DNA of 64,000 bases. Origin: a virus. Its lineage: Duplodnaviria; Heunggongvirae; Uroviricota; Caudoviricetes. This document shows, one piece after another, positions 4,401 to 35,084 of the stretch (position 1 is the first letter of the stretch; every line of letters begins with the position of its first letter). Under the pieces are notes generated by a model that searched no databases, was not told the DNA's origin, and saw only the letters and a list, made by a program, of their open reading frames with translations. The stretch is from the IMG/VR virus record IMGVR_UViG_3300021976_000008, positions 25,164 to 89,163 of that record. One strand, 5' to 3'. The position numbers and the translations under genes are program-made.

Positions 4401-4682
4401 CCGCACAGCTTCGCTAAGCGAGGCTTCCGGATCGCCAAGGTCGAATCGGTGCAGGGTTTGAGTAATCAGACCATAGCGAATCAGGCCGCCCGCAACCTCG
4501 CCCGCAGTGGCGACGCGTTCGAGTGGTTGACATTCAGCTCGACCGCCGACCCTCGCCACGAGACCCTTGATGTCATAGAGGCGTTTGGTGAGCGATGGCT
4601 CGAAACAGCGTGGACCCTCGAACTTCGTTCTGGCGGGGCGATGCAACACACGATGAAGCGAGTCACCTATGACGTTGTCTGA
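1470..4682 (+). CDS. minor tail protein, 1070 aa, with 13 tandem Gly-rich ~20-aa repeats (GSFGFTGvASG..RVvGAA)
   Basis: Very large ORF in tail region; internal 60-bp DNA tandem repeats; C-terminal globular domain. Confidence 0.7.
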   Translation: MGSVSGLARVLKSSRSPVRLSNLMEFRGTAWEAMSDYFFGVSAVDYEWSDVADENRLTKWVYTQDGVAVSDATVDPALHELDIGLTAGPDPISNQREMYTIPETATWGIAHALVEIKGEAYEAGMALPQHGIGLRAQEDTVRRAIVAWHDVFIGNPHAINVGVWQGNLDGSGFTNRQGNANLDLKQIYNILSGARVGGTVTAVTNVAHGMVVDDYLNISWTREFAGATLNRASNVVTATLGSGHQMQAGDIAFLFGAGSFSGTHTVTSANATQVFWAQVGANEGGSGTVKDRSSDVRQVQVTEIVNSTTFRYVDGKHDLTNLGTSTTANERLFPYFMEMRVSGTVVQVRCWSRHQSIPVWNEPTRSFNIDLDKADRVYTVTAGSRTSGISTLTIGAHDFAVGNIITVDVTDASGDVANGFVTGITATEVRYWNPGTDNGTLGTGTCTRHGGATTAADIATIPTPRGSGRVAVAAAHEGITQISHCSYGTIVGSNSYDSNLLPVSATGVFGFTGVASGVVRVVGAGVGSFGFTGTAAGRPRVVAAATGSFGFTGVASGITRVRGAATGSFGFAGAASGVVRKLGAATGLFGFTGSASGETVSGPVTGSGTGLFGFTGAASGGVRKLGAASGSFGFTGIAAGRPRVVGAATGSFGFTGIASGRPRVVGVAVGSFGFIGVAGGHPRVFGVAVGSFGFTGVAQGRTPAFVSSHRWAPTTEEILDLDGVRRRIDRFRFELCDRELNPIGELHPDRSGTVPQIQNDASDNTSRRLTGLKLTPDESSEVNTLTDRLRVYMTLQNDVEFRLGTFLWADDSRPERSWGSEQNAELVDFSYILSQPSATAYGWGKNATISLIIYFLMFRAGFSLEDIAVVGDEANRGLADPKTWEPGATWLQMLTDIGAVVGFTAPWFDRDGRVHFDQAPNPDVDRVSIPSYDTDTRIIADSIVRSDDMLAAPNIFTVYDSGSDRLRSGTYEIPSSAPHSFAKRGFRIAKVESVQGLSNQTIANQAARNLARSGDAFEWLTFSSTADPRHETLDVIEAFGERWLETAWTLELRSGGAMQHTMKRVTYDVV
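2984..3575 (+). repeat. about 10-13 copies of a 60-bp tandem repeat encoding GSFGFTG(V/I)ASG..R(V/K)(V/L)GAA(T/V)
   Basis: Directly visible periodicity in DNA and protein (ggtagcttcgggttcaccggt... motif). Confidence 0.8.
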
Positions 4683-6495
4683 GCGGAGCATCGCCAGGAT
4701 CATTCGTCGGGCTGTCAAGTCGGCGATCGCTGAAGCTGTCTCGACGGCTCGGGTGTCGACGCAGCTCTCCGGCACTGTTGAGCAGGTGGACGAAGATCTC
4801 GATGTTGTCTGGGTTCGCATGGACAACGAGGTACTCGGCGCCGACCCCATGCAGTCGCTCAACTACGAGGCCCCTGGCATCGTTCCCGCGACGCGCCTGG
4901 GAGAGACCTTCACCGACGAACAGGTTCGAGTCACCTTCGATGGCCCTGCCGGTGCGACGGCTCAGCGCACCAGCGTCGAGAACCGGATCGTGCTGCCTTT
5001 CGGTGCTGAAGGTGAGCGCATCGTTCTTGACGGTGAAGAGGGAGCGATTGGCTTCTATGACATCGACGGTGATCTGGTCGGGTACCTGGACCCGGCTCAA
5101 TGGTTCATTGGCAAGTCTGGTGAATCTCTGCTCCGACTCGACCCCCTAGGCGGGCTTCGCCTGCGGGACAGCAACGACATCCTCAGGGCACAGCTCTCGG
5201 CCCCTGAGGGGCTCGTCATCTCAGACCCAGTAAGCGGCATCTCGGGCCTGATCGCCAACCACGACGGCCTGATGATCCTCGACCCGGCGACCGGGGAGCG
5301 GATCTCGATCACGAGTGGAGGAACGTCAGGCACGCCGACGCCGAGCTGGGCTGGGACCGTGGCGCTCAGTCCCGGCGCCACGCACAGCACGCCAGCGGTC
5401 ACTGACTTCGGGACGGGCGACGATCTCGATATCCGCTTCACGGCGTGCTCGGCCGCCGCCAACCTGGGCGCCCAGAGCTACACCCCGCCCGCCGGATGGA
5501 CCGAGCAGACCGATCAGAACGTGTCGGCGAGCGGGATCACGTTGGGATCCTCGTGCGCGACCAAGGACCCCGCGGACGCCGTGCCGGGCGTGGCCAACTT
5601 CACCAACACATCCGCAGCGTTCACGCGACGCAACGGTCATAGCGTCATCGTTCGAGGCGGAGGCGGGGTCTCGCCCGCCTTTCGCTCCGCCAGCACCGAG
5701 GCCGTCGTTTCCACCGCTGCATCCATCGGGTTCGACATTGACGCTCCGGCCGGGCTAGCTGCTGGCGACCTGGCCCTGGCGCACGTCTCTATCGCATCCA
5801 ACCGAGTCCCGATCGGCTGGACCGTGCCGGATGGCTGGAAGCAGGTCGGGATCGTGGTCGCTGGCCTCGGGACCACCCACATCCTCGCCTCGGGGATCTG
5901 GTACATCCAGGCGCCCGCCTCGCCCCCCTCGATGGAGCACGTCGCCATCAACATGGGCTCGACCGGACTTACCCGAGTGCAGGCCACCGTCGTGGCCATC
6001 AGCGATCCCTATGAGTTCCCGACTGGGCTCGACATCCGCCAGGGCAACCGGTCGATGCCAAGAGGTCTGATGGGTGAGGCAATCGGGACCTCCACTACCA
6101 CGAACTGGGCGAACGCCGCGCTACCGCAGACCGTCGAGACGATCAGCAACGTGGATCTGCTGGCCGGTCGGAGCTACAAGATCGCCTACGACGTCCCGAA
6201 CTACACGTTCAACGGGATCAGTTCTGCTTCTCGCTTCGCTATCGACATTGAGATGGACACGGGGTCGGGGTTCACGCTCTTCCATACGATCATCGCTCGA
6301 TCCATGAGCGTGGCCGGCACGGAAAACGGACCAGCGAGCGGCAGCATCTCCTATGTTCCAGCGGGGAATGAGACGATCAGCCTGCGTAGCCGGGTACGAC
6401 AGATAGCCGCTGGGACCGGTTTCAACATCCAGTTGAGCGGCTCGGCCCAGGCTCGCAGATGGCTCTATATCGAGGACACGGGCGCGGTGTTCTAG
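4669..6495 (+). CDS. minor tail protein (608 aa)
   Basis: Large Ser/Thr/Gly-rich ORF overlapping the upstream tail gene stop; position in the tail-gene block. Confidence 0.6.
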   Translation: MTLSERSIARIIRRAVKSAIAEAVSTARVSTQLSGTVEQVDEDLDVVWVRMDNEVLGADPMQSLNYEAPGIVPATRLGETFTDEQVRVTFDGPAGATAQRTSVENRIVLPFGAEGERIVLDGEEGAIGFYDIDGDLVGYLDPAQWFIGKSGESLLRLDPLGGLRLRDSNDILRAQLSAPEGLVISDPVSGISGLIANHDGLMILDPATGERISITSGGTSGTPTPSWAGTVALSPGATHSTPAVTDFGTGDDLDIRFTACSAAANLGAQSYTPPAGWTEQTDQNVSASGITLGSSCATKDPADAVPGVANFTNTSAAFTRRNGHSVIVRGGGGVSPAFRSASTEAVVSTAASIGFDIDAPAGLAAGDLALAHVSIASNRVPIGWTVPDGWKQVGIVVAGLGTTHILASGIWYIQAPASPPSMEHVAINMGSTGLTRVQATVVAISDPYEFPTGLDIRQGNRSMPRGLMGEAIGTSTTTNWANAALPQTVETISNVDLLAGRSYKIAYDVPNYTFNGISSASRFAIDIEMDTGSGFTLFHTIIARSMSVAGTENGPASGSISYVPAGNETISLRSRVRQIAAGTGFNIQLSGSAQARRWLYIEDTGAVF

Positions 6496-26033: not shown

Positions 26034-27578
26034 CTAAGCCGCCGCTTCCCCGGTACCCGCTGGCGCATTGTCCATCGCGATGGGTGTAAGGCAGCGAGTC
26101 CCATCGCGCCCGGGGAGGTCTCGGGGGACGCTGGGGTCGTTGCGAGTCCAGATGCGGAACTCCCCGCCACGCTGGACGGCGATGACCTCGAAGGCATCGG
26201 CTAGGAACGCTCGCCTCTCTTCGATACCGAGCGTCTCCCAGATCTCGCTGAGGTTCACGGGCAGAGCAACGCCGAGCACGGCGTTGCGAGCTTCAGCGAC
26301 AGCCTCGCGAGCTTCCATTACCCGAGCCAGACGAGCCTGTTGCCCGTCCTCGACCCAGGACTTGCCCAGAACCCGCCCCATTTCGATCGTGCTGTCCGAG
26401 ACGAGGAACTCCCTCAGCTCTGCCTCTGCGGTCTCCTGCTCCAACAGCGCGGCTTCTAGGGCGTCTGTGGACACCTCGCCACGAGCGAAGCGATCGCAGC
26501 ACGGACCGAGGAACTTGGTCCTGAAGACCTCCTCGACCGCTGCCTCGATGACGTCAGCTCGGATACGGGCCGGCGCCGGGCACTTGCCGAACGTGTGGTT
26601 GCGGCGGCAGTCGTAGTAGCGGTAGTGGCCGTAGGCGTTCTTGGTGCCGACGCCGCGCATGGTGACACCGCAGCCGGTGCAGCGGATGATGCTGGTGAGC
26701 TTGTACGTGGCCTCGTCGTTCCGCAGGACGTTCCGGTTGTGAGCGTTGGCTCGCTGCCACAGATCGAGCGACACGATGCCCTTGTGGGCGTTGAGGTTCA
26801 CGAACTCACCCGAGGTGATCTCGCCGAGGTAGACGCGAGACTGGACGAGGCGGCGCACACTGTTGATCCCCCAGAGGCCGCCTTCTCTAGTCCGGATGCC
26901 CCCTTCGTTGAGCCAGTCGGCGATCTTGGCCCAGGCCATTGGCCCGGTAGTGCCGTCGGGTCGGGGAGCTTCGGCTCGCCGCTCGAACATGCCGACGACC
27001 CAGTCCTCCTCGTCGGGGACGGACACCAAGCGACGCGTTCCGATGAGCTTGCCGTTCGGACCGGGCACGCCGTCCTTGCGGTAGCCGTAGGGCTCGGCTG
27101 TGTGGACACCGTTGGCGACGCGGCGCCGGGTGACGTCCTCCCAGCCCTTGGTGACGGACTTGAGGTACCACTCAGCCATCCACAGCAGCACGGCCAGGAT
27201 CAACTGCGACAACTCGCTACCGTCGCCGTAGATGCCGTCCTTGACGGCGATGAACACCTTGCCGTTGTTCTCCAACTCGCGCACGGCCAGGAGACCACCG
27301 ATCATGTCGCGAGCGAGGCGATCGACCTTCATGACGATGATCCCGTCGGCCTCGTCAGCAAGAACCCCAGCGACGGCTTTCTGAAGCTCCTTGCGCTCGA
27401 CCGTCTTGCCCGAGACCGAGTCGGACTCATCGAACCAGTGCACGATGCGGTGGCCGTTGGCCTTGGCCCAGGCCTCGCAGGAATCGACCTGCTCGAAGGG
27501 CGAGTGGTACGAACCGTTGTCCGAATCCGAGCGGTTGTTGTCTCGGGAGACACGCTTGATGCCGAAGAGGTCAGCCAT
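26034..27578 (-). CDS. int: large serine recombinase (phage integrase, resolvase catalytic domain + recombinase domain + zinc ribbon/coiled coil)
   Basis: N-terminal resolvase motifs with catalytic Ser (VSRDNNRSDS...), RLARD, long C-terminal recombinase domain with Cys cluster CTGCGV..C. Confidence 0.9.
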   Translation of the reverse strand: MADLFGIKRVSRDNNRSDSDNGSYHSPFEQVDSCEAWAKANGHRIVHWFDESDSVSGKTVERKELQKAVAGVLADEADGIIVMKVDRLARDMIGGLLAVRELENNGKVFIAVKDGIYGDGSELSQLILAVLLWMAEWYLKSVTKGWEDVTRRRVANGVHTAEPYGYRKDGVPGPNGKLIGTRRLVSVPDEEDWVVGMFERRAEAPRPDGTTGPMAWAKIADWLNEGGIRTREGGLWGINSVRRLVQSRVYLGEITSGEFVNLNAHKGIVSLDLWQRANAHNRNVLRNDEATYKLTSIIRCTGCGVTMRGVGTKNAYGHYRYYDCRRNHTFGKCPAPARIRADVIEAAVEEVFRTKFLGPCCDRFARGEVSTDALEAALLEQETAEAELREFLVSDSTIEMGRVLGKSWVEDGQQARLARVMEAREAVAEARNAVLGVALPVNLSEIWETLGIEERRAFLADAFEVIAVQRGGEFRIWTRNDPSVPRDLPGRDGTRCLTPIAMDNAPAGTGEAAA

Positions 27579-27808
27579 CAGCGGACTTCCATGAACTCGG
27601 CAATGCCTTCGACCGCCTGGGACTTGGTCTTCCAGTAGTGCCCGCATTCGCATGACACCGAGGCGAACCCGCCAGCTTCAGCGAGGGCCTCGCCCATGAT
27701 CATCTCGCCGGTCTCCTCATCGATCGAGACGTCCTGCACGAGGACGCCTCGACGGATTACGCGGAAGGTGAGTGAGCCGCAGCTGGTCGGGCAGTAGAGA
27801 CGGCGCAT
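27578..27808 (-). CDS. zinc-ribbon protein (76 aa) translationally coupled to integrase
   Basis: CPTSC...CECGHYW; TGATG overlap with int start. Confidence 0.5.
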   Translation of the reverse strand: MRRLYCPTSCGSLTFRVIRRGVLVQDVSIDEETGEMIMGEALAEAGGFASVSCECGHYWKTKSQAVEGIAEFMEVR

Positions 27809-30522: not shown

Positions 30523-31116
30523 CTAGAAAACGATGCCGGGCCGGACGTGTGTCCCACCCATGGACGAGACCATGAGCAAGGTGTCGGCCATGTACCGCAG
30601 ACCCTCGGGGATGGCTCCTTCAAGCGTCGCCTCGCGCTCGTTGTCGGGGAGCGCAATGATCTCGTTCTGTCGGCGAAATCGGATGACAGAGTAGACCGTC
30701 GATCCGGCCATGAGAGTCCCGAGCACGATGCGGTTCTCGCGCCGATTGACGTGTTGGTGGATGCGGCGCTCCCGAGCGACCCGCTCGACGTCTTCTGCCT
30801 CATCGGTGCCAAGCGCCCAACCCTCACAGACGACGCCCACTCCGATCATGTCAGGACGTATCAGCTTGGACGTCATGCCCTGATGCTGTGAGATCAGGTC
30901 AGCGCTGCGATGCAGGAACCCGCCCAACGTGCGATTCATGCCCCAGACCCATGGCTCAAGCCTGACATCGTTGGCGGTCACCCCGTCTCTGCCCTTGTTG
31001 TAGAGGAGGTACAGGTACGGCGTGGCTTGGCCCGAAGGACGCCATCCGTCGACCCCGTTGTGGTGTGCCTCTAGCTCTAGCAAGCACGCCTGTAAGCGCT
31101 CGACCAGCTTGCCCAC
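30523..31116 (-). CDS. hypothetical protein (198 aa)
   Basis: GTG start 10 nt after AAGAGGGG RBS; upstream part of the long ORF is Arg-rich artefact. Confidence 0.45.
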   Translation of the reverse strand: MGKLVERLQACLLELEAHHNGVDGWRPSGQATPYLYLLYNKGRDGVTANDVRLEPWVWGMNRTLGGFLHRSADLISQHQGMTSKLIRPDMIGVGVVCEGWALGTDEAEDVERVARERRIHQHVNRRENRIVLGTLMAGSTVYSVIRFRRQNEIIALPDNEREATLEGAIPEGLRYMADTLLMVSSMGGTHVRPGIVF

Positions 31117-31391
31117 TACGGATCTACCCCTCTTATCCGGCGGATAATATGGCGGAGGTAGAAGAGCCCCCCGACACCCGCTGCCGCGTCCACGGCAGCC
31201 CAGAACCAGTTGCCGAGGGCAAGGTTGAGGAGCACAATCGCCGTAAAGGGGAGAGTGGCGGCGAGGTACGGATACCTCTGCACGAGCTTCAACAAGGGGT
31301 CGCCTCCCGGAAGCGAGCCCCCACGTTTCCGTGGGGTGCAGTGGGCCTGACTCTCGGGAACGGAAGGCGACCCCTTGCAGGATGTTAGCAC
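31116..31391 (-). CDS. small membrane protein (91 aa)
   Basis: TM segment LAATLPFTAIVLLNLALGNWFWAAV. Confidence 0.4.
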   Translation of the reverse strand: MLTSCKGSPSVPESQAHCTPRKRGGSLPGGDPLLKLVQRYPYLAATLPFTAIVLLNLALGNWFWAAVDAAAGVGGLFYLRHIIRRIRGVDP

Positions 31392-31394
31392 GGC

Positions 31395-31595
31395 CTAGCA
31401 GGTTGGAGGATCGAACTGCCCAGAGGTGGCCTCGGCCAGGAACGCCTTCCACGCGGCGGTTGTGAAGTGGAGGACCAGGCCATCCGGTGCTGTCGAGCTG
31501 CGCACCATGACTCCTTCCGGAGTCACGCACACTTCGACACAGGCAGCATCTTCGCACGCGAAGCTTCGTTGCCAGAGCAGTGCCTTTTCCGTCAT
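31395..31595 (-). CDS. DUF397 domain protein (66 aa)
   Basis: WQRSFACEDAACVEVCV..VMVRSS..GLVLHFT..AWKAFL matches DUF397 pattern (WRKSSYS..CVEVA..VRDSK). Confidence 0.7.
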   Translation of the reverse strand: MTEKALLWQRSFACEDAACVEVCVTPEGVMVRSSTAPDGLVLHFTTAAWKAFLAEATSGQFDPPTC

Positions 31596-32692
31596 CGCTC
31601 GATCCCTGCCTTGACGTGCTCACCGTTCCCGTTCTTCTTCTCGAACACCTCTTCGTCCATCGCCGCGAAACCAGGTGCCGTGGGGACTTGACGATCATGG
31701 CGGCGACCACGTCGCCGGAGAACCTTCTTGCGAAGCACCTTCCCATGTCTGTCGTATAGTGCCGGGAAGTCCTCTGCCGCGTAGCCCGCGCCACGCCAAC
31801 TCAAAGCGCCGTTGATCTCATCACCCATCACCCACGCGTTCCATGCCTTGACCGTGACGGCAAGACGTGTAACTTGGCTCGGATTCTCACGGTCCGAATG
31901 CTTCCGCCCAGACCACCTGCGTAGCTGATATGTACCACTGCGCTCAGTTAGATCCACCCCCCGCATCAACTCATCATGGAACTTGTCCGAAAGCTCGGGC
32001 TCATAGCTGCTGATGACGTAGTGAAAGGCAGTGGTCACCGACTCGACGAAACCTAGTGCCTTCTCGCGACGAGCTAGAGCCCGAGCGAGTCGAAGCGATG
32101 CGTGGACCTCGTCATGGTTGCCCAGCCAACGAAGCACCTGATTCGCTGTTGGAGGCGTGTTCGACATCAGAGTGCCGAGGTCCCATCGAACGAGCAGTCG
32201 TGCAGCCGGCGCCAACTTGGCTGGTTGGGCGTATTTGTGCATCGCCAGGACATGCTGAAGGCTGCGCCTTCGACCGGTATCGATGGTGTCCCACGCGTCA
32301 GGCGAGGCGTGAGTGAGAACGATTGTGCGGAACGTCTCACTCTTCTCGATGCATGCTTCCAGACGTGTTTGCCCGTCCATCAACCGACCCCAGGGTGGGA
32401 AGCGTTCATCGTCACAGAAGGAGATCGTGCTCCCGTTGACGAACCACACCCCATCCGCCATGTCCTCGCCATAGCGATCGATGTGGCCGTCGCTCTTCGG
32501 ACGGTTGCGTTCGTTGCCAGCGAGCATCTGCTTGGCGATCTCGGGGGTGATCCACATGATCCGGACCTCTTCGGTCCAGACCTCTTCCTCCGACGGCGTC
32601 TTCTCGGATCTAACTGTCGAGGCCATCTGCACCACCTTGGGGTTCGAGGACTGTGTCGCCATCGTAGCAAAACTTGGTGGGCCGAGGGGCAT
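31592..32692 (-). CDS. ParB/Srx-fold protein (ParB-like nuclease domain; DGQTRLEA motif resembling DUF262 DGQQR)
   Basis: N-terminal domain with DGQTRLEA; start may be at a downstream Met (codon 11 or 23). Confidence 0.55.
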   Translation of the reverse strand: MPLGPPSFATMATQSSNPKVVQMASTVRSEKTPSEEEVWTEEVRIMWITPEIAKQMLAGNERNRPKSDGHIDRYGEDMADGVWFVNGSTISFCDDERFPPWGRLMDGQTRLEACIEKSETFRTIVLTHASPDAWDTIDTGRRRSLQHVLAMHKYAQPAKLAPAARLLVRWDLGTLMSNTPPTANQVLRWLGNHDEVHASLRLARALARREKALGFVESVTTAFHYVISSYEPELSDKFHDELMRGVDLTERSGTYQLRRWSGRKHSDRENPSQVTRLAVTVKAWNAWVMGDEINGALSWRGAGYAAEDFPALYDRHGKVLRKKVLRRRGRRHDRQVPTAPGFAAMDEEVFEKKNGNGEHVKAGIER

Positions 32693-32721
32693 ACCCTTGC
32701 CCCCCGGCCCGGGGAAGTGTT

Positions 32722-32795
32722 TAGCGATGACGGGACTTGAACCCGCGACATCACGCGCCAGAGGCGTGCGCTCATACCAACTGAGCTACATCACA
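32722..32795 (-). tRNA. tRNA with anticodon CUG (Gln) on minus strand
   Basis: Hand-folded cloverleaf: D-arm GCTC/GAGC, anticodon stem CACGC/GCGTG loop CTCTGGC, T-arm GCGGG-TTCAAGT-CCCGT, 7-bp acceptor with one T-T mismatch at 1:72; no CCA encoded. Confidence 0.65.
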
Positions 32796-32866
32796 CTTTT
32801 GATATCGGACGTTGGCTTGCCCGTGTCTAAACCGGAAGAATCTTGCCATTAGATCATCCCGCCATG

Positions 32867-32912
32867 TGGAGGCGGGAGCGGGGATCGAACCCGCATGTCC
32901 CCGGATTGGGCT
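32867..32912 (-). pseudogene. tRNA 3'-half-like fragment (T-arm GCGGG-TTCGATC-CCCGC + acceptor strand + encoded CCA) without a matching 5' half
   Basis: Perfect T-arm and ...TCCCGCCTCCA; no GGCGGGA 5' acceptor strand within 100 nt. Confidence 0.4.
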
Positions 32913-32924
32913 CACCTGTCCGAA

Positions 32925-33000
32925 GGTTTAGCTTGAGCTTAAGCTTGGAGCGAGAGCTTCAGCTTGATTCATGAGCTTGAGCTTGAACTTGAACTTGTGC
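32925..33000. repeat. array of about 10 degenerate hexamers AAGCT(C/T)/GAGCTT including two AAGCTT palindromes
   Basis: gcttgagcttaagcttggagcgagagcttcagcttgattcatgagcttgagcttgaacttgaactt. Confidence 0.5.
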
Positions 33001-33020
33001 TCCACTCCCTCTCGGGAGAT

Positions 33021-33758
33021 CTATGGGGCGAGAAGATACTCGAACACAGGGCTGCCGACCTTGAGGTCGGTGACCGGGGTCCGGTTGGCTTCCTCTCGCG
33101 CGAACGTGACGGCGTCGATGAGAACGTCGATGCGATCGAGCAACTGCTGCCGCCGAGAACCGTCGATGGCGCCGGAGAGCTTGGTCACCGTCCAGGTCCC
33201 TTCCGGCTCGCTGACCGTGTAGACGTGGACTTTCTCAGGATGCTCCTTCGTCGCCGGGGAGATGCGGTGGTTCTTGAACACCTCGTGAGTCTTCTGCCGC
33301 TCTTCGGGTTCCGATCGGGAGACACCGGTCGTTTCATCGGTGTTCCAGATCTCAGCCGGGTCGAGGATTGGGAGGTGAACCAGGAAACCGCGCAACTCGA
33401 TGAGCTGCTTCTCGAACCACACCAGGTACGAAGCAGGGACATCCGCGAGCAGCACGTCCCCCTCGACCACGATGTTCGCCTTGGCCTCGGTGTTCGTCCT
33501 GTCGCGACTGGCCGTGATGTCCCACCAGCGACCGAGATCGGCGGCGAGGCGATCGGTGATGCCCTTCACCGTGAGCTGCACTTGGGTCGACTCCTGCGGG
33601 TACCCCTGCTCGCCGTCCACCTTGGGCGCGTACTTCCGAGCTAGCCCATTCAGTGGACCGCTCTTGTTGATGTCATCCGTCGCCTGAGCCCGAGTGCTTT
33701 CGGCCTTCGCTCGGGCTCGCCCCTCGACCCCGAGGAGCTGGTTAAGTAGTGTCGGCAT
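33021..33758 (-). CDS. hypothetical protein (245 aa)
   Basis: Long protein-like ORF; no recognisable motif. Confidence 0.5.
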   Translation of the reverse strand: MPTLLNQLLGVEGRARAKAESTRAQATDDINKSGPLNGLARKYAPKVDGEQGYPQESTQVQLTVKGITDRLAADLGRWWDITASRDRTNTEAKANIVVEGDVLLADVPASYLVWFEKQLIELRGFLVHLPILDPAEIWNTDETTGVSRSEPEERQKTHEVFKNHRISPATKEHPEKVHVYTVSEPEGTWTVTKLSGAIDGSRRQQLLDRIDVLIDAVTFAREEANRTPVTDLKVGSPVFEYLLAP

Positions 33759-33969
33759 GGCTCGATACCGTACCGAACGGTTGGTCGTCGGGGCAAGGGG
33801 TTTCTAGCCGGGCGTGAACAGCCTTCCGCGCCTCGGCTTGAACAGTTGAGGTGACCGGCCCGCAGAACCAGCACGTGCAGCCTTCCCTCGTGCACGGGAA
33901 GTTCGCTATCACTCCGTTTCCGAGGTCGTAGTGACCCTTGCGGCAGTCGGCGCAGCGTCCGTCGGTCAC
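33742..33969 (-). CDS. Cys-rich protein (75 aa)
   Basis: CADC..C..C.C.FC cysteine cluster. Confidence 0.35.
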   Translation of the reverse strand: MTDGRCADCRKGHYDLGNGVIANFPCTREGCTCWFCGPVTSTVQAEARKAVHARLETPCPDDQPFGTVSSHADTT

Positions 33970-35084
33970 GGCCCGATGAGACTCAGCGTGGACACGATGT
34001 GTTCCCGCAGGTCGTCCGCCTCGGGTCCTCTGAACCTGGCCGGGTCGAGGATGTTGTGCATGCGAGTGATGCGGTCAACGACTCGACGAGACATCATCCC
34101 GTTGCGCTCCACGCGCGACAGCATGTCGTGGCCGAGGGTGTAACCCCTTTCGATCTCGACCCCGCCGTCTGTCAGGTGGAGCCAAACGAGCGAACCGCAG
34201 ACGAGAATCCCGCTTCGCTCGTTTGCGTCTGCCGTGCCGGTGAGCGCCTGCTCGTAGAGCCCGATGGCGGCTGAGCGGTGTCGGTAGCCATGGCCCACCA
34301 GGGCTCGTAGCGCGGCGCCCGTGTCGCCCTGGTGGTGGGCGACGTCGTAGTGGCTGATCCACGGTCGGTCGGCCGCGTCATCGGGGCTGCTCTTGGAGTA
34401 CATGAATTTGTCAGCTTCGCCGATCTCTGTGAGCGTGGCTTGCTCGTCGCCGAGCTTGCCGTACGCACGAGCCCGTAGGGCGTGCAGCATGGCTAGGTCC
34501 GTACCCGACAGCTCCTTACGTCGGTCACCCTCGATCGCATGCGAGAGGTCGGCGAGGGCCTTGTCGGGCTGGCCGATCGCCAAGTGCTGACGCGACTGCT
34601 GGCCGAATATGCGCGCGGCCAAAGGCCAGTTGTTCGCTGACTTGACCGTCTCAATTGCCAGCCACCACAAGCGGTAGGCCTCCAAGTGTTCGCCGACGTC
34701 GTGACGAGCGAACGCCGCGTTGTTGAACACCCACGCTGCTGCTGCTGCTCGCTCGCCGAACAAGTTCGGCTTGCTGGACGGTCGACAGGGTGCTTCGAGG
34801 ACCATCTTGGCCTGCTTGACCTGCGCATCCGCTTGCCGCAGGGCGTAGCCCCCTCCGTTGCGCATGTCTGCCCGCTTGAGACGCATTGCTGCGCCTCGGA
34901 GCCCTTCGACTTCCGCCCAGCCCACCGAGGTGGGCGGTTCCGTGAGCAACATCTGTCTGCCTCCCATTCCAAGGAAGAGCGCAGCGGCGGTCCCACCCAC
35001 GACGAAGGTTCGACGTTCCATGCCGTCTATGGTAACCCCTGCACTGCTCCGTGTTGATCGGTCAACCCTCCACGACACCCTCAA
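33966..35084 (-). CDS. hypothetical protein (372 aa; alternative start at codon 22 gives a twin-arginine-like N-terminus MERRTFVVGG)
   Basis: Long ORF with helical repeat-like composition. Confidence 0.45.
   Translation of the reverse strand: MRVSWRVDRSTRSSAGVTIDGMERRTFVVGGTAAALFLGMGGRQMLLTEPPTSVGWAEVEGLRGAAMRLKRADMRNGGGYALRQADAQVKQAKMVLEAPCRPSSKPNLFGERAAAAAWVFNNAAFARHDVGEHLEAYRLWWLAIETVKSANNWPLAARIFGQQSRQHLAIGQPDKALADLSHAIEGDRRKELSGTDLAMLHALRARAYGKLGDEQATLTEIGEADKFMYSKSSPDDAADRPWISHYDVAHHQGDTGAALRALVGHGYRHRSAAIGLYEQALTGTADANERSGILVCGSLVWLHLTDGGVEIERGYTLGHDMLSRVERNGMMSRRVVDRITRMHNILDPARFRGPEADDLREHIVSTLSLIGP

What the first reader, a model, noticed from the sequence alone, without database searches (positions are those of the whole stretch)
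32722..33000. tRNA (anticodon CUG, Gln), a 46-nt tRNA 3'-half mimic with encoded CCA, and a hexamer repeat array
The full tRNA folds with good D, anticodon and T arms but has a 1:72 mismatch. About 70 bp further on there is a perfect T-arm plus acceptor strand plus CCA with no 5' half, followed by about 10 AAGCT(C/T)/GAGCTT hexamers that include two AAGCTT palindromes. Possibilities for the 3' half: a remnant or decoy related to an integration core, a tRNA-like RNA structure, or a pseudogene. The hexamer array lies next to the ParB-like gene and could be its binding (parS/centromere-like) site.
Basis: seen in the sequence. Interest (0 to 1): 0.55.

Follow-up and report, generated by a model that had tools for sequence, protein, structure and literature searches.

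The report
Permuted tRNA mimic RNA beside DUF7873
The "tRNA 3' half" is half of a complete, circularly permuted tRNA look-alike which, with the hexamer repeats, forms a conserved non-coding RNA behind an uncharacterised gene (DUF7873); this RNA-protein pair occurs in hundreds of bacteria and phages and appears undescribed.

Summary
Everything lies on the minus strand. The tRNA-Gln(CUG) at 32722-32795 is real.

The "3' half with no 5' half" was misread. Three nucleotides after its CCA come a perfect 5' acceptor strand and a D arm. Together they form a circularly permuted cloverleaf: the acceptor stem is capped, there is no anticodon loop, and the domain sits on a base-paired rod.

This domain and the hexamer array form the 3' non-coding RNA of a DUF7873 gene (33021-33758).

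- **Distribution:** the same gene-plus-RNA unit, usually with two tRNA-like domains, was found in 66 of 75 viral contigs and 77 of 80 actinomycete chromosomes.
- **Structure support:** all 31 base pairs covary. A covariance model built without the window hits it at 58 bits (E 2e-14).
- **Known families:** Rfam has no family for it. The only match is a weak one to YrlA, the bacterial Y RNA that mimics tRNA. No Ro60 gene is nearby.
- **Hexamers:** they are a strand-specific RNA motif (A-R-R-Y-U-N). They do not look like a parS site or a single ORF.

Best reading: a reduced, one-domain member of a new DUF7873-linked branch of YrlA-like tRNA mimics. RNase P probably cleaves it at G1. Its function is unknown.

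The parts
33021..33758 (-). DUF7873 gene (245 aa). Its stop codon, TAG, is at 33021-33023. The RNA element is its 3' flank.
   Evidence: Pfam PF25283, E 2e-74. AlphaFold2 model pLDDT 93.6, with no fold neighbour in PDB or BFVD.
33005..33018 (-). Small hairpin just after the stop codon, CUCCC-GAGA-GGGAG. It is followed by UGGAGCAC (32997-33004), the conserved GAGCAC lead-in to the first hexamer array.
   Evidence: Sequence. The same hairpin and G(A/C)GC(A/G)C lead-in are seen in L001, L002 and many family loci.
32973..32996 (-). Hexamer array A: AAGUUC AAGUUC AAGCUC AAGCUC.
   Evidence: The homologous arrays in other loci all have the form A-R-R-Y-U-N.
32929..32965 (-). Hexamer array B: AAGCUG AAGCUC UCGCUC C AAGCUU AAGCUC AAGCUA. 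The conserved centre is UCGCUC (32948-32953). After it the hexamer register shifts by +1.
   Evidence: It aligns with the region between the two tRNA-like domains of 40 family loci, consensus UCAGRYU-NUYGCUCYA-RRYUCA. In the window only 7 nt (32966-32972) separate arrays A and B, at the place where the first tRNA-like domain sits in other loci.
32918..32923 (-). Outer rod helix, 5' strand UCGGAC. It pairs with GUCCGA at 32805-32810.
   Evidence: Minimum-free-energy fold. L001 has the same helix, UUCGGAU/GUCCGAA.
32908..32916 (-). Second rod helix, 5' strand GGUGAGCCC. It pairs with GGGCAAGCC at 32814-32822.
   Evidence: Minimum-free-energy fold. L001 has GAGCGCAG/CUGUGCUC at the same place.
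32899..32904 (-). Stem that closes the tRNA-like domain, in the position of an anticodon stem. The 5' strand CCGGGG pairs with UUCCGG at 32832-32837.
   Evidence: L001 has CCACCG/CGGUGG here, so every position changed and pairing was kept.
32878..32894 (-). T arm: GCGGG-UUCGAUC-CCCGC.
   Evidence: G53, U54, U55, C56, A58 and C61 are invariant in 24 aligned domains.
32857..32877 (-). Capped 7-bp acceptor stem. 3' strand UCCCGCC (32871-32877), U73 (32870), CCA (32867-32869), CAU (32864-32866), 5' strand GGCGGGA (32857-32863). The predicted RNase P site lies between 32864 and 32863.
   Evidence: 7 of 7 pairs. The acceptor stem is paired in 99.7% of cells, and all 7 pairs show changes on both sides, across 53 independent family members. 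The RNase P site is inferred from M. smegmatis YrlA (PMC4201824).
32840..32854 (-). D arm, AUCU-AAUGGCA-AGAU, preceded by U8-G9 (32855-32856).
   Evidence: U8, A14, G18, G19 and A21 are invariant. All four D-stem pairs covary.
32823..32831 (-). Unpaired UUUAGACAC on the 3' side of the rod. It corresponds to the hexamer-like bulge found after the second tRNA-like domain in other loci.
   Evidence: The family covariance model R1 aligns through this stretch (UuAaac). See also the alignment.
32722..32795 (-). Ordinary tRNA-Gln(CUG), with no encoded CCA. It is inserted between the rod and the terminal hairpin.
   Evidence: L001 has tRNA-Arg(UCU) at the same place.
32679..32710 (-). Terminal GC-rich hairpin with loop AAGGGUAU, followed by ACCAAGUUUUGC. 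It probably ends the transcription unit.
   Evidence: Sequence. Hairpins with a GGAUAUG- or GGGUAUG-type loop end the unit in chromosomal and phage loci. The simple terminator scan does not call it.

Best explanation
**What it is.** Window 32805-33018 (minus strand) is the non-coding 3' part of the DUF7873 transcript. Its order is: a small hairpin, two arrays of single-stranded A-R-R-Y-U-N hexamers, then a base-paired rod tipped by a circularly permuted tRNA-like domain. That domain runs T arm, acceptor 3' strand, U-CCA, 3-nt cap, acceptor 5' strand, D arm, and has no anticodon loop.

It is a reduced, single-domain member of a large family of RNAs that follow DUF7873 genes in actinomycete chromosomes and in phages. 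Most members carry two such domains. The architecture is that of YrlA, the bacterial Y RNA that mimics tRNA, but the linked protein is DUF7873 instead of Ro60.

**Proposed mechanism.**
1. The RNA is co-transcribed with DUF7873 and, here, with tRNA-Gln (inferred from layout).
2. The domain folds into a tRNA L-shape (supported).
3. Its 7-bp G1:C72 acceptor stem makes it an RNase P substrate, cut 5' of G32863. The upstream piece is then trimmed to, or completed as, ...U-CCA. The result is a nicked RNA held together by base pairing (inferred from M. smegmatis YrlA).
4. DUF7873 binds the hexamer arrays or the rod, and the tRNA mimic docks a tRNA-recognising partner. The particle would be a Y-RNA-like scaffold acting in RNA or tRNA metabolism (inferred).
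For: **Anatomy in the window.**
- Permuted cloverleaf.
- Rfam YrlA aligns T arm, capped acceptor and D arm in that order.

**Family.**
- The same layout follows DUF7873 in L001 and L002.
- It also follows DUF7873 in Arthrobacter, Rhodococcus and Gordonia phages, in unannotated gaps of about 280-530 nt inside tRNA arrays, and in Vibrio and Rhizobium phages.
- Strict pattern scan: 101 hits just after the gene in 75 viral loci. Controls gave 3 upstream, 2 antisense, and 7 in 20 shuffles.
- 77 of 80 chromosomal loci also have it.

**Covariation.**
- On 53 matches not used for training, 95.8% of cells are paired, against 61.6% when shuffled and about 40% when the partner is slid.
- All 31 pairs show changes on both sides; 0 of 500 shuffles reach the observed values.

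**Membership of the window.**
- Model R1, built without the window or L001, gives one hit in 64 kb: 32825-32894(-), 58.4 bits, E 1.8e-14.
- For comparison, Ro60-linked YrlA copies score 36 bits or less, and pairs of adjacent tRNAs 23 bits or less.

**Kinship with YrlA.**
- Rfam YrlA matches full length at 36.9 bits, E 1.4e-6, in L017.
- YrlA copies next to a TROVE/Ro60 gene in L185 (taken as genuine from that context, not from any experiment) share the D arm UAGCCCAAUUGGUAGAGGC.

**Processing precedent.** M. smegmatis YrlA has a 7-bp acceptor stem, is cut by RNase P and receives CCA in vivo.

**CCA.** N-CCA is encoded in 44% of viral and 20% of chromosomal cap loops.

**Hexamers track DUF7873.** There are 4.2 per 140 nt around DUF7873-linked domains, against 0.5 around permuted domains without DUF7873.
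Against: - There is no experimental datum for this family.
- DUF7873 has no recognisable RNA-binding fold. Its binding to the hexamers is inferred only from co-occurrence, and the comparison group has just 6 loci.
- The window copy lacks the first tRNA-like domain. It also lacks the family's conserved internal loop (AUCGACC / UUAAACG), so R1 aligns only the core.
- Rfam YrlA scores are far below the gathering threshold (16.8 bits here, against 69).
- CCA is absent from more than half of the cap loops, so a free CCA end may not be essential.
- The strict-scan sequences were preselected for pairing. The model-based alignment leans toward the model's structure.
Confidence: 0.6

Rival explanations
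1. It is simply a YrlA Y RNA that works with the host's Ro60 (Rsr), as in M. smegmatis and mycobacteriophages. On this view DUF7873 is an incidental neighbour.
For: - Rfam YrlA is the only family that matches.
- YrlA copies next to Ro60 in L185 score just as poorly with that model (27-29 bits), so failing the Rfam threshold means little.
- The D arm is identical to that of the Ro60-linked YrlA.
Against: - No TROVE domain was found in any window ORF tested. This covers every ORF listed within 4 kb and all ORFs of about 270 aa or more that are not buried inside a longer ORF.
- None was found in the two chromosomal loci examined.
- The RNA follows DUF7873 in 66 of 75 viral loci and 77 of 80 chromosomal loci.
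- The GNCGAAN0-1G motif is absent from the window element.
- Hexamer arrays are absent from the Ro60-linked copies.
Confidence: 0.2
2. It is a two-piece (permuted) tmRNA-like RNA. After RNase P cleavage the CCA end would be aminoacylated, and the hexamer arrays would be translated as a (Lys/Arg)-(Leu/Phe) tag.
For: - The gene order (T arm, acceptor 3' strand, CCA, short loop, acceptor 5' strand) is that of permuted tmRNA precursors.
- There are weak partial Rfam hits to tmRNA families.
- The hexamers read as AAG/AGA plus CUN/UUN codons, with the sixth base free.
Against: - ARAGORN finds no tmRNA.
- The acceptor stem has C3:G70 and U73. G3:U70 occurs in 0 of 108 viral and 11 of 133 chromosomal domains.
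- The hexamer register shifts by +1 after UCGCUC, and there is no conserved start or stop.
- The array frame relative to the upstream stop codon is not conserved (22/20/11).
- Arginine-like triplets are only ever AGR, never CGN, even in roughly 70% GC genomes.
- Phendrix carries a genuine tmRNA as well as this element.
Confidence: 0.04
3. The phage copies act as decoys or sponges for host tRNA-targeting defence nucleases or tRNA-modifying toxins. This would protect the phage's tRNA supply.
For: - In phages the module sits inside tRNA arrays.
- It is a close tRNA mimic with all tertiary-contact nucleotides conserved.
- N-CCA is more frequent in phage copies (44%) than in chromosomal copies (20%).
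Against: - The module is at least as common in bacterial chromosomes, outside any phage or tRNA context.
- It has no anticodon loop, which is the usual nuclease target.
- There is no PADLOC match.
Confidence: 0.1
4. It is a remnant or attP core of integration into a host tRNA gene, or a decayed tRNA pseudogene.
For: Phage attP cores often copy the 3' end of a tRNA, and the window encodes an integrase.
Against: - The integrase is a large serine recombinase about 5 kb away.
- The 5' acceptor strand and D arm are present in permuted order.
- The element is conserved with compensatory changes in more than 100 loci, including chromosomes.
Confidence: 0.02
5. The hexamer array is a DNA centromere (parS-like) site for a neighbouring ParB-like protein.
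For: It is a short tandem repeat containing one AAGCTT palindrome. By eye, the downstream ORF has a ParB-like N-terminal motif; this was not verified.
Against: - There is no ParB Pfam hit, even at E of 1 or less.
- The motif is strand-specific and always in the sense of DUF7873.
- It lies inside a covarying RNA.
- It is present in chromosomal copies whose neighbouring genes are unrelated.
Confidence: 0.03

Closest known systems
YrlA (Y RNA-like A; Rfam RF02553; Chen et al. 2014, PMC4201824)
   Same: - tRNA-like module with T arm, closed acceptor-like stem-loop and D arm, in that 5'-to-3' order.
- It sits at the tip of a rod formed by the RNA's 5' and 3' parts, with no anticodon loop.
- The tRNA tertiary-contact nucleotides are conserved.
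- It is found in actinobacteria and their phages, often with two modules in tandem (YrlA and YrlB).
   Different: - It is linked to DUF7873, not to a Ro60/TROVE gene.
- It lacks the GNCGAAN0-1G motif.
- It carries arrays of A-R-R-Y-U-N hexamers, which were absent from the Ro60-linked copies examined.
- The Rfam score is 16.8 bits here and at most 36.9 bits in the family members tested, against a gathering score of 69.
M. smegmatis YrlA (processed form)
   Same: It has a 7-bp acceptor stem with G1. There, this leads to RNase P cleavage and a CCA tail in vivo, and the two halves stay together.
   Different: In the window the CCA is already encoded (U-CCA-CAU-G1). Processing has not been tested here.
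Two-piece (circularly permuted) tmRNA of alpha- and beta-proteobacteria and cyanobacteria
   Same: The gene is permuted, with the acceptor ends joined by a short loop that is removed to expose the CCA.
   Different: It has no alanine identity (no G3:U70 or A73), no tag ORF with a fixed frame, and no detection by ARAGORN or Rfam.
Permuted tRNA genes of the red alga Cyanidioschyzon merolae (from memory)
   Same: The 3' half precedes the 5' half in the gene.
   Different: Those mature into true tRNAs with an anticodon loop. Here the 'anticodon stem' continues into a closed rod.
Viral and cellular tRNA-like structures used as processing or end-protection signals (TYMV TLS, MALAT1 mascRNA; from memory)
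   Same: A tRNA mimic in the 3' part of a longer transcript that tRNA enzymes recognise.
   Different: The topology is different (a capped acceptor), and the setting is bacterial or phage.

Membership tests
YrlA (Rfam RF02553 / Chen et al. 2014) | T and D stem-loops with tRNA-invariant nucleotides, separated by a closed acceptor-like stem-loop, on a stem formed by the 5' and 3' parts | tested here: met
YrlA (Rfam RF02553 / Chen et al. 2014) | Reaches the Rfam gathering score (69 bits) | tested here: not met
   16.8 bits in the window and 36.9 bits in L017. However, Ro60-linked phage YrlA copies in L185 also reach only 27-29 bits, so this threshold does not discriminate for actinophage copies.
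YrlA (Rfam RF02553 / Chen et al. 2014) | Encoded within about 4 kb of, and on the same strand as, a Ro60/TROVE gene | tested here: not met
   No TROVE hit in any ORF within 4 kb, or in any window ORF of about 270 aa or more that was scanned. The upstream gene is DUF7873.
YrlA (Rfam RF02553 / Chen et al. 2014) | GNCGAAN0-1G motif near the 5' end (putative Ro60 contact) | tested here: not met
   Reading the sequence, 32796-33020(-) contains no GNCGAA. The nearest stretch is CUUCGGAC. Other family members have GAUCGACC at the comparable place.
YrlA (Rfam RF02553 / Chen et al. 2014) | Bound by Ro60/Rsr | not testable with these tools
   Needs immunoprecipitation.
   58.4 bits, E 1.8e-14. It is the only hit in the window below E 1.
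   Only one domain is present, and only 7 nt separate arrays A and B. The internal loop is not recognisable. The same reduction is seen in L001 and in the chromosomal locus L123. The window is therefore a reduced variant.
tmRNA (one-piece or permuted) | G3:U70 with A73, and a tag ORF with a resume codon and a stop codon | tested here: not met
   The acceptor has C3:G70 and U73. No tmRNA by ARAGORN. No conserved frame. G3:U70 is rare in the family.
Functional tRNA (including permuted tRNA genes) | Anticodon stem with a 7-nt anticodon loop | tested here: not met
   The stem continues into rod helices closed by the RNA's own strands.
Phage attP core copied from a host tRNA 3' end | Adjacent tyrosine integrase, and identity to a host tRNA 3' end | tested here: not met
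   The integrase is a serine recombinase at 26034-27653. Identity to a host tRNA could not be tested because the host is unknown.
parS / ParB centromere | A neighbouring ParB-family protein, and palindromic DNA boxes that work in either orientation | tested here: not met
   No ParB domain. One palindrome only. The motif is strand-biased.

The most novel reading that the evidence does not exclude
After RNase P cleavage the domain carries a free, encoded CCA end and is aminoacylated. The A-R-R-Y-U-N arrays then serve as a template-like or ribosome-engaging segment. This would be a new, Ala-independent kind of trans-translation or ribosome-targeting RNP, with DUF7873 in the role SmpB plays for tmRNA.
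Probability: 0.04. Interest if true: 0.95.

Novelty: new variant of a known kind. Interest (0 to 1): 0.7.

Why it matters
- **An open question becomes testable.** Bacterial Y RNAs that mimic tRNA (YrlA) are known only as partners of Ro60. What their tRNA-like module binds is still unknown.
- **A second branch.** Here the same module appears in a second, much larger branch that has swapped Ro60 for a protein of unknown fold (DUF7873) and gained hexamer arrays.
- **Scale.** Of the loci examined, 77 of 80 chromosomal and 66 of 75 viral ones carry the RNA. Many of the phage copies sit inside tRNA arrays.
- **Use.** This gives a comparative handle on what tRNA mimicry is for. It points to a new RNA-protein particle in Streptomyces and its relatives.
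- **Annotation.** It also explains the unannotated gaps of about 280-530 nt in well-studied actinobacteriophage genomes.

Tried and rejected
- **Close DNA relatives among phages:** a megablast of the 3-kb region against phage records found nothing.
- **Rfam at gathering thresholds:** searches on 20 viral and 16 chromosomal family loci returned only ordinary tRNAs and one true tmRNA.
- **Stop-codon read-through into the array:** rejected, because the frame is not conserved.
- **Arrays A and B pairing with each other:** rejected. In L036 both arrays are AGACUC, so they are not complementary.
- **Hexamers pairing with the T loop:** rejected by inspection.
- **Pattern search for domain 1 in viral contigs:** it mostly caught tandem ordinary tRNAs (88 of 123). 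It could not show that the RNA is exclusive to DUF7873.
- **Simple terminator scan:** it does not call the terminal hairpin.
- **Two resemblances noted from memory, not tested:** UCGCUCU(A/U)A resembles boxA, and UCGCU resembles a MazF-mt7 site.
- **A correction of my own memory:** I recalled that Wang et al. 2018 report phage YrlAs. On reading the abstract this was wrong.
Full report
**1. Observation**

All three features lie on the minus strand.
- ARAGORN finds one tRNA in the 64-kb window: tRNA-Gln(CUG) at 32722-32795(-).
- Rfam's tRNA model scores it 58.3 bits and flags the 1:72 pair (U.U) as non-canonical.
After three bases (CAU) comes GGCGGGA, the exact complement of the acceptor strand. 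Then come UG and a D arm, AUCU-AAUGGCA-AGAU.
- Upstream, CCGGGG pairs with UUCCGG just after the D arm.
- The minimum-free-energy fold gives a four-way junction of T arm, capped acceptor hairpin, D arm and a closing stem. That stem continues into two more helices (z = -2.7 to -3.5 against shuffles).
- So this is a circularly permuted cloverleaf with a closed acceptor end and no anticodon loop.
- Tandem Repeats Finder confirms the hexamer array (32930-33001, period 6, 11.7 copies). There is one AAGCTT in it, not two.

**2. Genomic setting**

- The element starts 3 nt after the stop codon of ORF 33021-33758(-), which is a DUF7873 protein (Pfam E 2e-74).
- Downstream come the tRNA-Gln, a GC-rich hairpin, and an ORF of unknown function (phrog_5931).
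- Neither neighbour has a ParB domain, even at E of 1 or less.
- The window is a temperate actinophage-like genome. It encodes a serine integrase, a primase-polymerase, an FtsK-like protein, an amidase and an NsdA-type regulator.

**3. Relatives**

Viral relatives:
- Two viral contigs with DUF7873 homologues show the same layout after the stop codon: a hairpin, G(A/G)GCAC, four N-A-A-G-Y-U hexamers, and permuted tRNA-like domains.
- In L001 the closing stem is CCACCG/CGGUGG against the window's CCGGGG/UUCCGG. The D-stem pair 10:25 is G:C against A:U. These are full compensatory replacements.
- In the cultured phages Racecar, NiceHouse, Keelan and Phendrix the DUF7873 gene sits in a tRNA array. 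It is followed by an unannotated gap of about 280-530 nt that holds two permuted domains.
- A Vibrio phage and a Rhizobium phage have one domain each, plus AAACUN hexamers.

Counts:
- A profile-guided scan of viral contigs confirmed 235 DUF7873 loci, and the best 80 were kept.
- A strict pattern scan was run on the 75 distinct loci. It required a T arm, a 7/7 complementary acceptor pair with a 4-39 nt linker, and a D arm with GG.
- It gave 101 hits in the 900 nt after the gene. Controls gave 3 in the 2.2 kb before it, 2 on the opposite strand, and 7 in 20 shuffles of all loci.

Chromosomal relatives:
- The best 80 are all actinomycete genome contigs (Streptomyces, Actinomadura, Actinoplanes, Kitasatospora, Nocardia, Glycomyces and others).
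- 77 of the 80 carry the permuted domains right after the gene, and 56 carry two.
- Their neighbouring genes are unrelated housekeeping genes. No TROVE domain and no tRNA array was found.

**4. Structure support**

- On 24 aligned cores including the window, T, acceptor and D stems are 97% paired, and 14 of 16 pairs change on both sides. These sequences were preselected for pairing.
- The invariant positions are U8, A14, G18, G19, A21, G53, U54, U55, C56, A58, C61 and G1:C72. This is the tRNA tertiary-contact set.
- A covariance model (R1) was built from 27 second-domain units, none from the window or L001.
- R1 finds 53 further units at E of 1e-12 or less in loci not used for training, 47 of them full length and all but one (L011, opposite strand) just after the DUF7873 gene.
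- On that alignment all 31 pairs in five helices show changes on both sides. Pairing is 95.8%, against 61.6% when shuffled and 37-46% when the partner is slid. None of 500 shuffles reaches the observed values.
- In the window R1 gives a single significant hit, 32825-32894(-), at 58.4 bits and E 1.8e-14. The ordinary tRNA-Gln is not hit.

**5. Relation to known families**

- At Rfam's gathering thresholds nothing but ordinary tRNAs matches the element, in 20 viral and 16 chromosomal loci.
- In E-value mode the only meaningful family is YrlA (RF02553):
  - 16.8 bits for the window core;
  - 36.9 bits (E 1.4e-6, full length) and 23.8 bits for the two units of L017;
  - 21.6 and 17 bits in a Streptomycetaceae chromosome.
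- YrlA is defined by T and D stem-loops flanking a closed acceptor-like stem, a GNCGAAN0-1G motif, and a position within 4 kb of Ro60.
- The first feature is met. The other two are not.
- One viral contig found by chance (L185) has TROVE/vWA_Ro60-linked YrlAs, taken as genuine from that context. They share the D arm UAGCCCAAUUGGUAGAGGC but have 4-nt cap loops and no hexamers. They score only 27-29 bits with Rfam's model and 36 bits or less with R1.
- I therefore file the element as a YrlA-like tRNA mimic of a distinct, DUF7873-linked branch, not as a YrlA in the published sense.

**6. The hexamers**

- Across loci the arrays are same-sense repeats of A-R-R-Y-U-N. They lie before domain 1, between the domains, and as a bulge after domain 2.
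- The array between the domains has a conserved UYGCUC centre, followed by a +1 shift of register.
- They look like Lys/Arg-Leu/Phe codons, but five things argue against coding:
  - there is no start codon;
  - the frame relative to the DUF7873 stop codon is not conserved (22/20/11);
  - the register shifts;
  - Arg-like triplets are always AGR and never CGN, even in roughly 70% GC genomes;
  - there is no conserved stop codon.
- Arrays A and B are not complementary (in L036 both are AGACUC).
- Motif density is 16.6 per kb on the sense strand, 7.9 on the antisense strand, and 8.1 upstream.
- They flank DUF7873-linked domains (4.2 per 140 nt, n = 17) but not permuted domains without DUF7873 (0.5 per 140 nt, n = 6).
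- I infer that they are the module specific to this branch, most simply a binding platform for DUF7873.
- DUF7873 itself models confidently (pLDDT 93.6; four long helices plus a beta sheet). It has no neighbour in PDB or BFVD, and no PADLOC, PHROG or NCBIfam match.

**7. Mechanism**

Shown:
- the permuted tRNA-like fold, its conservation and covariation;
- its linkage to DUF7873;
- its co-orientation with tRNA genes.

Inferred from M. smegmatis YrlA (7-bp acceptor stem, RNase P cleavage and CCA tail in vivo, halves remaining associated):
- RNase P cuts 5' of G32863;
- the upstream piece is trimmed to U-CCA;
- the RNA persists as a nicked particle.

Two observations fit this. N-CCA is enriched in cap loops (44% of viral and 20% of chromosomal copies). 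G1:C72 is near-invariant.

Speculative: DUF7873 on the hexamers, plus the tRNA mimic docking a tRNA-recognising factor, would form a Ro60-independent, Y-RNA-like scaffold.

A tmRNA-like role is unlikely:
- G3:U70 occurs in 0 of 108 viral and 11 of 133 chromosomal domains;
- Phendrix has its own tmRNA.

**8. The window copy**

- The window copy is a reduced form. Domain 1 is missing: 7 nt separate arrays A and B.
- The AUCGACC/UUAAACG internal loop is not recognisable.
- An ordinary tRNA has been inserted between the rod and the terminal hairpin.
- L001 shares all three traits. The chromosomal locus L123 also lacks domain 1.

**9. Prior art**

- No paper in the searchable library mentions DUF7873.
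- Searches for YrlA, for tRNA-like RNAs in phage tRNA clusters, for tRNA-like sRNAs in Streptomyces, and for Y RNA/Ro60 in phages found no description of this branch.
- The library is incomplete, so absence there is not proof of novelty.

Noticed in passing
window 32679-32710 (-); L091, L093, L099, L108 at about 5100-5130; L014, L019 and others: The unit ends in a GC-rich hairpin whose loop is conserved (GGAUAUG or GGGUAUG type) across chromosomal and phage loci. That is more conservation than a plain terminator needs. In the window and in L001 an ordinary tRNA is inserted just before it.
   Followed up: partly
L006 569-1097 (Gordonia phage Phendrix, MN096369): A true tmRNA (Rfam 89 bits) lies in a stretch of the tRNA array that has no annotated feature in the record.
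   Followed up: no
L185 4974-5490 and 5639-7354 (IMGVR_UViG_2799113165_000002): A phage contig has a Ro60 gene (TROVE plus vWA_Ro60) preceded by three or four capped-acceptor tRNA-like domains, taken as genuine phage YrlA/YrlB because of the adjacent Ro60 gene. Two of them match Rfam's YrlA model, at only 27-29 bits against a gathering score of 69. That model therefore misses actinophage members.
   Followed up: partly
L011 3427-3597 (-): In this viral contig the family RNA (125.8 bits) lies on the strand opposite to DUF7873, about 1.2 kb downstream. It is the only such case seen.
   Followed up: no
window 32661-32692 (-): The ORF list starts ORF 31592..32692 at an ATG inside the loop of the terminal hairpin. 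A start near 32663 (MATQSSNPK...) is more plausible. This ORF also overlaps ORF 30523..31794 by about 200 nt.
   Followed up: no
window 5645-5720 (+): My strict pattern for a permuted tRNA-like domain also hits once on the plus strand, inside ORF 4669..6495. Covariance model R1 does not support it, so it is probably a chance match.
   Followed up: partly
window 32948-32953 (-) and homologous positions in family loci: The conserved centre of array B, UCGCUC(U/C)A, resembles the boxA core CGCUCUUA and contains the pentamer UCGCU, reported as a MazF-mt7 cleavage site. Both resemblances are from memory and untested.
   Followed up: no
P0011, P0012 (DUF7873 homologues): JGI names these proteins 'antitoxin component of RelBE/YafQ-DinJ toxin-antitoxin module'. 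The precomputed Pfam annotation for both lists only DUF7873 (PF25283), so the name finds no support there.
   Followed up: no
window 33966-35084 (-): An NsdA-family TPR regulator (NCBIfam E 2.6e-43) lies next to the DUF7873 gene. It points to a Streptomyces-like host.
   Followed up: no
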